Shown piece by piece: positions 1,291 through 3,820 of a stretch of DNA of 64,000 nt (positions are counted from its first letter, which is position 1; every line of letters begins with the position of its first letter). The translations under genes and the position numbers were made by a program. The notes under the pieces were generated by a model that ran no database searches, was not told the DNA's origin, and saw nothing but the letters and a program-made list of their open reading frames with translations. The DNA comes from the human T2T-CHM13v2.0 reference genome, Homo sapiens, in the NCBI RefSeq assembly GCF_009914755.1, contig NC_060947.1, one strand, 5' to 3'.

Positions 1291-2422
1291 GTAAGTCAAA
1301 TCAACATGTGAGTACATAGTTAGCTGGGTTATGAAGCAGCAGTGTTTGCTCTGCCACCTGATAAGTAGGAGGTAATGAAATATTTTAAATTTTCCTTTGG
1401 CTCATTATATATTGCATGAGGGTATATTCATATCATTCCCCCCTCCATTTCCAAGTATTTATTCCTATAAAATTGGCATATATCATTTTCAGTTTTCCTG
1501 GGTGAGACCAGCCTAAATAATTTTACAACAATTACATTTAAAAATCTTTGCGTGCTTTAGATAGAACACTATCATATCCTTTATGTCATTTTATCTCAGT
1601 TGATAAAATGTTTGTGTACGTAGGTTATTAGAGCCCACAAAATGAATCAGTAAGTGTGCTTTTAAATATACTTCTGCTTTTAGAGCTAATTGTATTTGTT
1701 TAAAATTTTGTCCTTGCCAGAAGTATTAACCTCATGGGAGTATTTAATGGAGCTTAACTTCCTGGTATATTATGTAACCTTATGAAATTCAAGTATACTT
1801 ATAAATTGCACAGTTTTTAATTTCAGACAGCAGATGCTTGGGGGAAGCATTTTACTTTCGCAGATCAATAGCTTTATGAATAGAAACACAGAGATAATTT
1901 ATGAATTGTTGATTTTCTCCAGTACTTGTCTCCCACACATATGTGATCAGAAACTAACTTTTTGAAATTTACTTTCTGATATTTTCACTTGAATGGTCTT
2001 CAAGATTGCTTGAAGAAGAAAATTATCTGAAATATGTTGAAGAAAATATATTACCTAGCTGAGATAGATTCTGAAGGCAGTCACTAGTGAAATTGTAATT
2101 TGTTAAATTATTTTGCAAGAAGCCCCCTTTTTTTAAGCAATCTTAAAAAATGGTAAACGTAATAACATTCCAAGAGTTTTTGACTAATTGGTGAAGAAGT
2201 ATAGAAAATTGCAAGTACACTGAGTAGGATAATGGTCTTAGATTCTTAGGAAGATTGGCTGAATGGGAGATAGTAAGGTAGGCTGTACTTTTATGTTGCA
2301 TAGCAGGCTGTTGAACTTTTTGAGAGTTATTTCCCCTAACTTCACAAGCAGACTATATGTTTGTAGCCATGAGCTATTAACAATTTGTATATCAAAATAA
2401 CCTACCTTACTTTTATTTTCAG

Positions 2423-2452
2423 GCTCCTCCATTACCATCCGCCTCATCTTGA
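2423..2452 (+). CDS. KDM6A: KDM6A last coding exon (APPLPSASS*)
   Basis: Acceptor ccttacttttattttcag|GCT CCT CCA TTA CCA TCC GCC TCA TCT TGA; phase 0, in frame with the previous exon; known UTX terminus. Confidence 0.98.
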   Translation, partial: APPLPSASS

Positions 2453-3820
2453 TATTGTTCCATGGACATTAAATGAGACCTTTTCTGCTATTCAGGAAAT
2501 AACCCAGTTCTGCACCACTGGTTTTTGTAGCTATCTCGTAAGGCTGCTGGCTGAAAACTGTGTCTATGCAACCTTCCAAGTGCGGAGTGTCAACCAACTG
2601 GACGGGAGAGAGTACTGCTCCTACTCCAGGACTCTCACAAAGCTGATGAGCTGTACTTCAGAAAAAAATAATAATTTCCATGTTTTGTATATATCTGACA
2701 AAACTGGCAACATCTTACAGACTACTGACTTGAAGACAACCTCTTTTATATTTCTCTATTTCTGGGCTGATGAATTTGTTTTCATCTGTCTTTTCCCCCT
2801 TCAGAATTTTCCTTGGAAAAAAAATACTAGCCTAGCTGGTCATTTCTTTGTAAGGTAGTTAGCAATTTTAAGTCTTTCTTTGGTCAACTTTTTTTTAATG
2901 TGAAAAGTTAGGTAAGACACTTTTTTACTGCTTTTATGTTTTTCTGTCTTGTTTTGAGACCATGATGGTTACACTTTTGGTTCCTAAATAAAATTTAAAA
3001 AATTAACAGCCAAGTCACAAAGGTAATGGATTGCACATAGACTAAGGAATAAACTTCAGATTTGTGATTTTTGTTTCTAATCTTGATGTAAATTTACACT
3101 ATTTATAAATACATATTTATTGCTTGAAAATATTTGTGAATGGAATGCTGTTATTTTTTCCAGATTTACCTGCCATTGAAATTTTAAGGAGTTCTGTAAT
3201 TTCAAACACTACTCCTATTACATTTTCTATGTGTAAATAAAACTGCTTAGCATTGTACAGAAACTTTTATTAAAATTGTTTAATGTTTAAAGAGTTTTCT
3301 ATTGTTTGAGTTTTAAAAAAGACTTTATGTACAGTGCCCAGTTTTTGTTCATTTTTGAAATCTGATTATATATATTTTATATATACTTATGTATGTATAT
3401 ATAATATATATAGAAATCTGGATATATATGTATAAATCTTTAGAACTTAAATTTTTCTCGTTTTAAGTTTCACATCTATGGTAGATTTTTGAGGTGTCTA
3501 CTGTAAAGTATTGCTTACAAAAAGTATGATTATTTTTAAAGAAATATATATGGTATGTATCCTCAAGACCTAAAATGTCAGACTGGTTTATTGTTAAGTT
3601 GCAATTACTGCAATGACAGACCAATAAACAATTGCTGCCAAAATGTAGTATAATAGTAGAAAACAAATAGTGATTGAACTTAAGATTTTAAAGGGACTGT
3701 TATATGGGCTTGACAAATCCTGTACAATACTTAGTACCATTTTATATGGAAAAGGGGATTCAGGATGAAGGGCTCTATTTTAGAATGCAAATAAATTAAG
3801 AGACTTATTTTTTAATGTTA
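2453..3820 (+). other. KDM6A: KDM6A 3' UTR (AU-rich) with tandem poly(A) signals
   Basis: Follows the stop codon; no interspersed repeats; AATAAA at 2987, 3048, 3236, 3623 and 3790. The end is inferred from the distal signals. Confidence 0.8.

What the first reader, a model, noticed from the sequence alone, without database searches (positions are those of the whole stretch)
1291..2858. Alternative KDM6A donor predicts a frameshifted 150-aa C-terminal tail encoded in the '3' UTR'
Seen: 17 nt downstream of the canonical donor (TTA|GTAAGT, 1291) is a second near-consensus donor, CAT|GTGAGT (1308-1313). Splicing it to the acceptor at 2423 gives ...[45 protein letters not shown]...LAGHFFVR*. This enters the frame of ORF 2385..2858, which stays open for 144 codons in an AT-rich UTR, and replaces the 9-aa APPLPSASS with 150 aa. 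The stop is in the last exon, so there is no exon-junction NMD trigger. Recalled, not verified: a mouse Kdm6a isoform ends VSEINMLLHYHPPHLDIVPWTLNMRPFLLFRK, which implies this donor is used in mouse. Consistent with that, ATG AGA CCT TTT CTG CTA TTC AGG AAA TAA (MRPFLLFRK*) is present at 2473-2502 but out of frame. Inference: a small indel near 2471 moved the stop out of frame in this lineage, giving a much longer, Cys-rich, partly hydrophobic tail (SFIFLYFWADEFVFICLF). It could act as a degron or relocalise UTX. If so, 'UTR' variants here would be coding in a Kabuki-syndrome/cancer gene.
Basis: partly seen in the sequence, partly recalled or inferred. Interest (0 to 1): 0.85.

Follow-up and report, generated by a model that had tools for sequence, protein, structure and literature searches.

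The report
Rodent-annotated alternative KDM6A donor, unproven in human
A second splice donor 17 bases into the last KDM6A intron is annotated as used in rodents, where it gives a 32-residue tail, but in human it is unannotated and the 150-residue tail it would encode looks like conserved untranslated RNA read in a stop-free frame, not an evolved protein.

Summary
It is rarer than chance: 0 of 20,000 shuffles keep that frame open.

Of the 120 KDM6A-family database proteins listed, 30 end in that 32-residue tail or a close variant. They come from 17 rodent species, so the same donor and acceptor are annotated there.

The human claim is not supported:
- No human RefSeq transcript uses the donor (hub table).
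- No primate database protein carries the extension.
- Six RNA-derived ORF calls show the canonical junction and none the alternative one.

The long tail is not a conserved protein:
- Eleven of 14 orthologous ORF calls, and the tinamou model, change frame.
- The Y paralogue has a stop and six frame-breaking indels.
- X-Y substitutions are even across codon positions.
- There is no Pfam family, and AlphaFold2 pLDDT is 36.

The indel near 2471 is two extra bases in rodents, not a change in the human lineage. A preprint reports that including this conserved 3'UTR in the mRNA raises UTX activity without changing its abundance. Human usage needs RNA-seq, which these tools cannot provide.

The parts
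1120..1290 (+). Penultimate KDM6A coding exon (57 codons, ends ..DQFTL)
   Evidence: Translation; hub RefSeq table. X-Y mismatches 4, 3 and 12 at codon positions 1, 2 and 3, the expected coding signature.
1291..1296 (+). Canonical 5' splice site, TTA|GTAAGT
   Evidence: hub table. Six ORF calls from spliced RNA carry the 1290^2423 junction. U1 duplex -5.6 kcal/mol (U1 end recalled).
1291..1307 (+). 17-nt exon extension if the second donor is used. It encodes VSQIN plus the first two bases of the Met codon.
   Evidence: Rodent isoforms carry VSEINM at this place.
1308..1313 (+). Second donor-like site, CAT|GTGAGT
   Evidence: U1 duplex -7.0 kcal/mol, no weaker than the canonical site. GTGAGT is kept in UTY at 15 nt. 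The orthologous site is implied by 30 rodent isoform proteins.
1309..1311 (+). TGA that ends the frame if the intron is read through (..VSQINM then stop)
   Evidence: Castor, Rattus and bat UTY models end ..VSE[IM]NM.
2421..2423 (+). Acceptor AG and first base of the last exon
   Evidence: hub table. Rodent alternative tails start at the same acceptor.
2423..2452 (+). Canonical C-terminus APPLPSASS plus TGA
   Evidence: 76 of 120 listed KDM6A-family proteins end APPLPSASS or APPLPSSSS.
2424..2858 (+). 144-codon stop-free frame plus TAG, entered only through the 17-nt extension. It lies in the proximal, highly conserved 3'UTR.
   Evidence: open frame and its rarity. (frame not conserved, no codon-position bias). 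(no Pfam family). (pLDDT 35.7).
2472..2475 (+). Site where rodents carry two extra bases relative to human
   Evidence: Rodent tails use 2424-2474 in frame 0 and 2473-2499 in frame 1, so two human bases are used twice. No indel here in UTY or tinamou.
2473..2502 (+). MRPFLLFRK plus TAA in the third frame. This is the end of the rodent alternative tail and is out of frame in human.
2453..3820 (+). Annotated KDM6A 3'UTR, conserved at the nucleotide level
   Evidence: 76% identity to the UTY 3'UTR over about 1.4 kb. 51 of 61 residues identical to tinamou when 2436-2618 is read in one frame, without an indel. Reported as a highly conserved 3'UTR whose inclusion in the mRNA raises UTX activity (PMC12236501; abstract and passages).

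Best explanation
The GTGAGT at 1308 is a tandem alternative 5' splice site of the last KDM6A intron.

Shown:
- The orthologous site, joined to the same acceptor, is annotated in predicted KDM6A isoforms of 17 rodent species.
- There it shifts the frame by +2 and replaces the last 9 residues with a 32-residue tail. The tail is short because rodents have two extra bases at about 2472, which bring a TAA into frame.

Inferred:
- In human the same splice, if it happens, is at most a minor event.
- It would run into a 144-codon frame that is open because the proximal 3'UTR is strongly conserved as RNA and happens to lack stops in that phase.
- The 150-residue product would be a non-evolved polypeptide without a function of its own. 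It would probably be unstructured or aggregation-prone.
- The conservation of the stretch reflects a role of the 3'UTR as part of the mRNA, not of a protein it encodes.
For: The donor is real in rodents:
- After ..VYDQFTL, 30 of the 120 listed proteins end in the 32-residue tail or close variants. They come from 17 rodent species.
- These tails map to window 2424-2474 in frame 0, then 2473-2499 in frame 1.
- One colugo '6A-like' model uses the same junction.
- The human site pairs with the U1 5' end at least as well as the canonical site, -7.0 against -5.6 kcal/mol.

Not annotated or seen in human:
- The hub table shows no alternative KDM6A exon here among 24 RefSeq transcripts.
- 0 of the 120 listed proteins is a primate protein with the extension. 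Such a protein would match all 63 query residues, which the rodent forms do at 124 bits against 116 for canonical forms, so it would be expected near the top of the list (my inference).
- 0 of 20 proteins found with the tail itself (3, 17) has VSQINM before it.
- Six of them begin MTNLH, then Q or W, then LLHYH or LLRYH. That is the +1 frame of the canonical junction read through its TAG.

The tail is not a conserved protein:
- Of 14 ORF calls that span most of 2436-2790, 3 keep the human frame to 2816 or beyond (all at least 88% identical). The other 11 change frame 2 to 9 times, and the tinamou model changes frame too.
- Several ORF calls are open only with W or Q opposite human TGA or TAG.
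- Tinamou leaves the frame at 2618.
- UTY has TGA at the Trp codon and indels of 3, 7, 1, 5, 1, 1 and 1 bases.
- X-Y mismatches are 27/136, 28/139 and 29/138 by codon position (chi-square p = 0.96). The coding exon gives 4, 3 and 12 of 57.
- The search of 1.84 billion representatives found 11 hits, all short ORF calls of 55-184 residues, 10 of which map onto this same UTR (P0025 only in part).
- No Pfam match above cut-off. AlphaFold2 from a single sequence gives mean pLDDT 35.7.

An RNA-level reason for the conservation: PMC12236501 (abstract and passages) classes the KDM6A 3'UTR as highly conserved. It reports more UTX activity when the 1368-bp 3'UTR is in the mRNA, at unchanged abundance.
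Against: - The open frame is hard to get by chance: 0 of 20,000 shuffles, and 0.33% of non-exonic positions.
- Some diverged ORF calls (P0008, P0009, P0010) leave frame 0 and return to it, so a long ORF survives. That could be read as selection for openness. I attribute it to ascertainment, because only long ORFs enter the protein database, but I cannot count the species in which the frame is closed.
- The human donor matches the consensus as well as the canonical one. At the protein level it looks the same as the rodent site (VSQINM against VSEINM), so appreciable human use is plausible and was not measured.
- The protein databases are clustered at 90% or 50% identity. A human isoform hidden inside a cluster would not have been seen.
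- Rodent isoforms are predicted models. I could not see their RNA support.
Confidence: 0.7

Rival explanations
1. One reading: human cells splice 1307^2423 at a meaningful level. The resulting UTX isoform with a 150-residue Cys-containing, partly hydrophobic tail has a function, such as a degron or relocalisation. Variants in the '3'UTR' would then be coding.
For: - Good donor: U1 duplex -7.0 kcal/mol.
- The same junction is annotated in 17 rodent species and one colugo model.
- The frame is open against the odds.
- The stop lies in the last exon, so no exon-junction NMD (standard rule).
- The frame is kept to 2816 or beyond in 3 close relatives.
Against: - No human RefSeq transcript uses the donor (hub table), and no primate protein carries the extension.
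- 11 of 14 ORF calls and the tinamou model break the frame. Rodents truncate it to 26 codons. UTY has a stop at codon 12 (my reading) and frame-breaking indels.
- No codon-position bias, no family, no confident fold.
- In the species where the isoform is annotated, the long tail does not exist.
Confidence: 0.07
2. The human GTGAGT is never used as a donor. It is a chance or decoy U1-binding motif near a strong donor, and both the motif and the open frame are coincidences in human. Rodent use depends on rodent-specific sequence context.
For: - No annotation in human or in any primate listed (hub table).
- All six RNA-derived ORF calls show the canonical junction.
- The motif seems absent where models read into the intron in birds, a deer, a tree shrew and the unnamed P0066. 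Their extensions do not end ..NM plus stop.
Against: - A second GTRAGT within 17 nt is expected only about 0.4% of the time.
- It is kept in the Y paralogue.
- It pairs with U1 as well as the canonical site.
- The rodent site looks the same at the protein level. Complete silence in human would therefore be surprising.
Confidence: 0.2
3. The 2424 frame is translated without the alternative donor. Routes would be a shift of ribosomes out of the canonical frame into the 2424 phase near the end of the canonical coding region, or a separate downstream ORF.
For: Only the length of the open frame.
Against: - The first in-frame ATG is codon 75, and it is Ile in most relatives (KLISC).
- I saw no slippery-site-like motif (my reading; not formally scanned).
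- The frame is not conserved.
- Canonical read-through of the TGA meets another TGA after 7 codons (my reading).
Confidence: 0.02

Closest known systems
Predicted rodent KDM6A isoforms with the 32-residue alternative C-terminus. Examples are NCBI models named isoform X11, X12 and X17 of Rattus norvegicus, X8 of Mus caroli and X11 of Mus pahari (names as given).
   Same: Same exon end, same six-residue extension (VSEINM against human VSQINM), same acceptor, and the same first 17 tail residues. These are identical to the human translation of 2424-2474 in Mus caroli and rat.
   Different: Rodents have two extra bases at about 2472 and stop after 26 tail codons. Human would read on for 144 codons. 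The human form is not in RefSeq (hub table) and was not found in the protein databases.
Tandem alternative 5' splice sites that shift the frame of a last exon and give an alternative C-terminus (a general class; recalled knowledge)
   Same: Two consensus-like GT sites 17 nt apart compete for one acceptor, with a frame shift and a stop in the last exon.
   Different: Use in human is not shown here.
Highly conserved 3'UTR of KDM6A as a functional part of the mRNA (Luo, Zhong, Basu and Mayr, bioRxiv 2025, PMC12236501)
   Same: The same 3'UTR (1368 bp in their construct). Its deep nucleotide conservation explains why a translation of it finds 'homologues' from mammals to birds.
   Different: That work treats the stretch as non-coding. 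In the abstract and the passages I saw, it does not mention the second donor or the open frame.
UTY, the Y-linked paralogue (G000:C24; loci L002 and L003)
   Same: Same exon-intron layout, GTAAGT donor followed by GTGAGT, and a 3'UTR 76% identical.
   Different: The GTGAGT lies 15 nt downstream, so the extension is in frame, and it holds a TAA. The tail frame has TGA at the Trp codon and six indels that are not multiples of three.

Membership tests
Alternative 5' splice-site isoform of KDM6A (as annotated in rodents) | A consensus-like GT donor downstream of the canonical one | tested here: met
   CAT|GTGAGT at 1308-1313. U1 duplex -7.0 against -5.6 kcal/mol for the canonical site.
Alternative 5' splice-site isoform of KDM6A (as annotated in rodents) | Joined to the same last-exon acceptor, giving the LLHYHPPHLDIVPWTLN.. 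reading | tested here: met
   The human translation from 2424 is identical over 17 of 17 residues to the Mus caroli and rat tails.
Alternative 5' splice-site isoform of KDM6A (as annotated in rodents) | Transcript evidence for the junction in this species | not testable with these tools
   No RNA-seq is available. Indirect evidence is negative: no RefSeq exon (hub table), 0 primate proteins with the extension among the 120 listed, and 6 canonical against 0 alternative junctions among ORF calls.
Alternative 5' splice-site isoform of KDM6A (as annotated in rodents) | Short tail ending ..MRPFLLFRK | tested here: not met
   In human that stretch (2473-2502) is out of frame by two bases.
Protein-coding sequence under purifying selection | Reading frame kept across orthologues and paralogues | tested here: not met
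   11 of 14 spanning ORF calls and the tinamou model change frame. Rodents stop after 26 codons. UTY has a stop and 6 of 7 indels that are not multiples of 3.
Protein-coding sequence under purifying selection | Excess of third-position substitutions | tested here: not met
   X-Y mismatches 27, 28 and 29 at positions 1, 2 and 3 (p = 0.96). The control exon gives 4, 3 and 12. Only one paralogue pair was available.
Protein-coding sequence under purifying selection | Membership of a protein family, or a confident fold | tested here: not met
   Pfam best hit 16.4 bits against a cut-off of 23. 11 hits in 1.84 billion representatives, all short ORF calls; 10 map onto this UTR, P0025 only in part. Mean pLDDT 35.7 from a single sequence.
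Highly conserved functional 3'UTR | Deep nucleotide conservation without a coding pattern | tested here: met
   76% identity to UTY over about 1.4 kb. 51 of 61 residues identical to tinamou over 2436-2618 without an indel. Even codon-position spread. Classed as highly conserved in PMC12236501. I did not see PhyloP values.

The most novel reading that the evidence does not exclude
Human and other non-rodent mammals do use the 1308 donor at a low but regulated level. This would make a UTX isoform whose last 9 residues are replaced by a long, lineage-variable tail read from the conserved 3'UTR. The tail would destabilise or mislocalise the protein, so donor choice would act as a post-transcriptional brake on UTX dosage. 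Rodents escaped this through a 2-base insertion that cut the tail to 32 residues, which would explain why the isoform is annotated there and not elsewhere. Some variants in the proximal 3'UTR or the first intron bases would then act through this isoform in Kabuki syndrome or cancer.
Probability: 0.08. Interest if true: 0.55.

Novelty: new member of a known kind. Interest (0 to 1): 0.3.

Why it matters
KDM6A is a dosage-sensitive Kabuki-syndrome and tumour-suppressor gene, so an unannotated protein isoform would change how variants in its last intron and 3'UTR are read.

This evidence says the risk is small. The junction is a rodent-annotated event, and the human tail shows no sign of selection as protein.

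Useful by-products:
- The recalled rodent isoform is confirmed.
- The indel that separates the rodent and human outcomes is placed at about 2472 and assigned to the rodent lineage.
- Large metagenome-style protein databases hold many spurious 'proteins' called on this conserved vertebrate UTR. Some are read with recoded stop codons, and they can mimic conservation of an ORF.

Tried and rejected
The first was reworded. The second was not repeated.
- Paper searches for an alternative KDM6A C-terminus found nothing:
  - (KDM6A, UTX, isoforms, alternative splicing) returned 94 papers. In the main one, PMC10296593, 'exon 29', 'exon 30', 'last exon' and 'splice donor' occur 0 times. It deals with exons 12-17.
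  - PMC11169469 concerns the exon that carries the nuclear localisation signal.
  - searched four tail peptides. The only hit was an unrelated peptide-nanofibril paper (listing only).
  - Searches (transcript variant, C-terminus; exon or intron 29, splice) gave nothing on this junction.
  - I therefore found no printed description, within those four searches of the held library only.
- An Rfam scan of 1000-3900 gave one chance-level match (E = 0.88). I found no known RNA family in the UTR.
- Plain tblastn hid internal frame changes by extending through them. I replaced it with a frame-aware alignment.
- I considered that the persistent long ORFs in other species show selection for openness. 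I rejected this as the main reading because of ascertainment, recoded stops (W or Q opposite human stops), and the closed frames in rodents, UTY and the colugo model.
- MaxEntScan-type donor scores could not be computed because no model files are held. The U1 duplex energy is a crude substitute.
- I did not open the supplements of PMC12236501 (Table S1, PhyloP counts). They may give the exact conserved positions.
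Full report
**What is in the sequence**

The penultimate KDM6A exon (1120-1290) ends ..GAC CAA TTT ACA TTA and is followed by GTAAGT at 1291-1296. 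Seventeen bases on, CAT|GTGAGT lies at 1308-1313. The last exon starts at 2423 behind a polypyrimidine tract and AG. In the canonical frame it reads APPLPSASS and then TGA.

The 17-nt extension would encode VSQIN plus two bases of a Met codon. It would put the ribosome in the phase that starts at 2424. That phase is open for 144 codons, to TAG at 2856-2858. The stop-to-stop frame is 2373..2858. MRPFLLFRK plus TAA is at 2473-2502 in the third frame. Reading straight into the intron meets TGA at 1309-1311. Every coordinate in the finding is correct.

**Is it more than chance?**

- GTRAGT occurs 36 times on both strands of the window, 15 of them on the + strand by my count. A second one within 17 nt of a donor is expected roughly 0.4% of the time (my arithmetic).
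- The 2424 phase stayed open in 0 of 20,000 dinucleotide-preserving shuffles of 2424-2855. Any phase stayed open in 6 of 20,000.
- Outside the L1 and annotated exons, 345 of 105,292 start positions (0.33%) are open for 144 codons or more.
- The other two phases of the stretch hold 8 and 11 stops.

Both features are uncommon. They were chosen after the fact, and the window holds about a dozen comparably long stop-free frames in non-coding sequence.

**The donor is real in rodents**

I searched the 5.8-billion-protein database with the exon peptide plus the six-residue extension (P0026). This gave 1746 hits, of which the best 120 are listed. I sorted all 120 by what follows the last ..VYDQFTL.

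| C-terminus after ..VYDQFTL | Proteins | Notes |
|---|---|---|
| Canonical (APPLPSASS 45, APPLPSSSS 31) | 76 | Includes all primate entries listed |
| VSEINM + LLHYHPPHLDIVPWTLN + MRPFLLFRK, or close variants | 30 | 17 rodent species |
| Same junction, stops after ..DIVP | 1 | Colugo '6A-like' model |
| Reads on into the intron | 13 | Beaver, one rat entry, a bat UTY, quail and bamboo partridge, a deer, a tree shrew, two unnamed |

The 17 rodent species are Nannospalax, Arvicanthis, Mastomys, Mus caroli, Mus pahari, Arvicola, Acomys, Thomomys, Meriones, Perognathus, Microtus, Alexandromys, Cricetulus, Phodopus, Mesocricetus, Cavia and Rattus.

A frame-aware alignment maps it to window 2424-2474 in the alternative phase and then to 2473-2499 in the third phase. 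Two human bases are used twice. Rodents therefore use the orthologous donor with the same acceptor, and they carry two extra bases at about 2472.

These are predicted models, and I could not see their RNA support.

**Which lineage changed?**

The tinamou models read ..WTLNENFSDIQE.., in the same phase through this site as human. Human UTY has no indel there. Fourteen of the 17 short ORF calls also read through it in one phase. The insertion is therefore a rodent change.

**Is the donor used in human?**

I cannot measure this. The indirect evidence is negative.

- The hub's RefSeq table lists one exon pair for KDM6A in this window and no alternative exon among 24 transcripts. It does list such exons for DIPK2B.
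- A primate protein with the extension would match all 63 query residues. The rodent forms do so at 124 bits against 116 for canonical forms, so it would be expected near the top of the list (my inference). None is there.
- Searching with the tail itself gave 3 long hits, all tinamou models, and 17 short ones. None has VSQINM before the tail.
- Six of the short ones begin MTNLH, then Q or W, then LLHYH or LLRYH. This is the +1 frame of the canonical 1290^2423 junction read through its TAG, so they come from canonically spliced RNA.

Against this, the human site pairs with the U1 5' end at -7.0 kcal/mol, compared with -5.6 for the canonical site (the U1 end is recalled). At the protein level it looks the same as the rodent site. 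Low-level use in human is therefore plausible. Clustering of the databases could also hide an isoform.

**Is the tail a protein?**

All the tests I could run say no.

1. Frame. Of the 14 ORF calls that span most of 2436-2790, three keep the human phase to 2816 or beyond, and all three are at least 88% identical. Eleven change phase 2 to 9 times. Several are open only because the gene caller read TGA as W or TAG as Q. Tinamou leaves the phase at 2618. Rodents stop after 26 codons. UTY has TGA at the Trp codon and indels of 3, 7, 1, 5, 1, 1 and 1 bases.
2. Substitution pattern. X-Y mismatches fall 27/136, 28/139 and 29/138 on codon positions 1, 2 and 3 (p = 0.96). In the coding exon they fall 4, 3 and 12 of 57.
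3. Family. An exhaustive HMMER search of 1.84 billion representatives found 11 hits, all ORF calls of 55-184 residues. In one search, 10 of them map onto this same UTR; P0025 does so only in part. Pfam gave nothing above cut-off.
4. Fold. AlphaFold2 on the single sequence gave mean pLDDT 35.7, with no residue above 70. A single-sequence model is a weak test.

Results that cut the other way: the frame is improbably open in human, and P0008, P0009 and P0010 leave the phase and return to it. I attribute the returns to ascertainment, because only long ORFs are called and stored. I cannot count the species in which the frame is closed.

**What the stretch is instead**

The proximal 3'UTR is deeply conserved as nucleotides.

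- It is 76% identical to UTY over about 1.4 kb.
- 51 of 61 residues are identical to tinamou over 2436-2618, without an indel, when read in one phase.
- A preprint (PMC12236501; I read the abstract and the passages returned) classes the KDM6A 3'UTR among highly conserved 3'UTRs. It shows the PhyloP track of the last two KDM6A exons in its Figure 1A (legend seen). It reports that including the 1368-bp 3'UTR in the mRNA raised UTX activity without changing abundance.

That gives an RNA-level reason for the conservation. It also explains why translating the UTR finds 'homologues'. Rfam has no family here.

**Verdict**

- The recalled rodent isoform is confirmed, so the donor is a real alternative 5' splice site in that order.
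- The human 150-residue tail remains hypothetical. It is unannotated and shows no sign of having evolved as protein.
- The indel story is right about the place and wrong about the lineage.

I put 0.7 on 'at most a minor splice event with a non-functional product in human'. The decisive data are junction counts, ribosome phase and peptides, none of which these tools hold.

**Literature**

Four searches found no printed description of this junction or tail. The work on UTX splicing that I opened concerns exons 12-17 (PMC10296593; PMC11169469).

Noticed in passing
window 2468-2473: An ATTAAA poly(A)-signal-like hexamer lies exactly on the site where rodents have two extra bases and where three distant ORF calls (P0016, P0019, P0023) change frame. 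The annotation shows no sign that it is used. AATAAA hexamers follow at 2987, 3048, 3236, 3623 and 3790.
   Followed up: partly
L003:1490-1815 (- strand) and L002:2330-2850 (- strand), G000:C24: Human UTY keeps GTAAGT followed by GTGAGT, but 15 nt apart. Its extension would be in frame and ends at a TAA after three codons (VSH). The 3'UTR is 76% identical to that of KDM6A.
   Followed up: partly
P0002, P0003, P0004 (Nothoprocta perdicaria KDM6A isoforms X9, X8, X4): These NCBI models jump from ..EQYKM straight into the 3'UTR frame (DCHPPHLDIF..), skipping the end of the exon. They then read 88 residues of UTR. This is probably a model or assembly artefact.
   Followed up: no
P0005-P0025, P0066: The large protein databases hold about 20 clusters of 'proteins' that are gene-caller ORFs on vertebrate KDM6A 3'UTR contigs. 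Several are read with TGA as W or TAG as Q. P0066, a 121-residue KDM6A exon fragment, bears the JGI name 'Mlc titration factor MtfA'.
   Followed up: partly
P0027 (Anguilla anguilla KDM6A-like isoform X4, 1607 aa): It scores 269 bits against a 63-residue query. That is more than one copy can give, so the exon is probably repeated in that model.
   Followed up: no
window 27258-30532: A cluster of long stop-free frames, up to 774 codons, lies in the masked repeat 27429-30466. My guess from length and layout, not tested, is an L1-type element.
   Followed up: no
window 1650-1655 and 640-645: There are further GTRAGT motifs on the + strand near the exon. The GTAAGT at 1650 (TCA|GTAAGTGT) pairs with U1 at -7.5 kcal/mol, the best of the four sites tested.
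   Followed up: no
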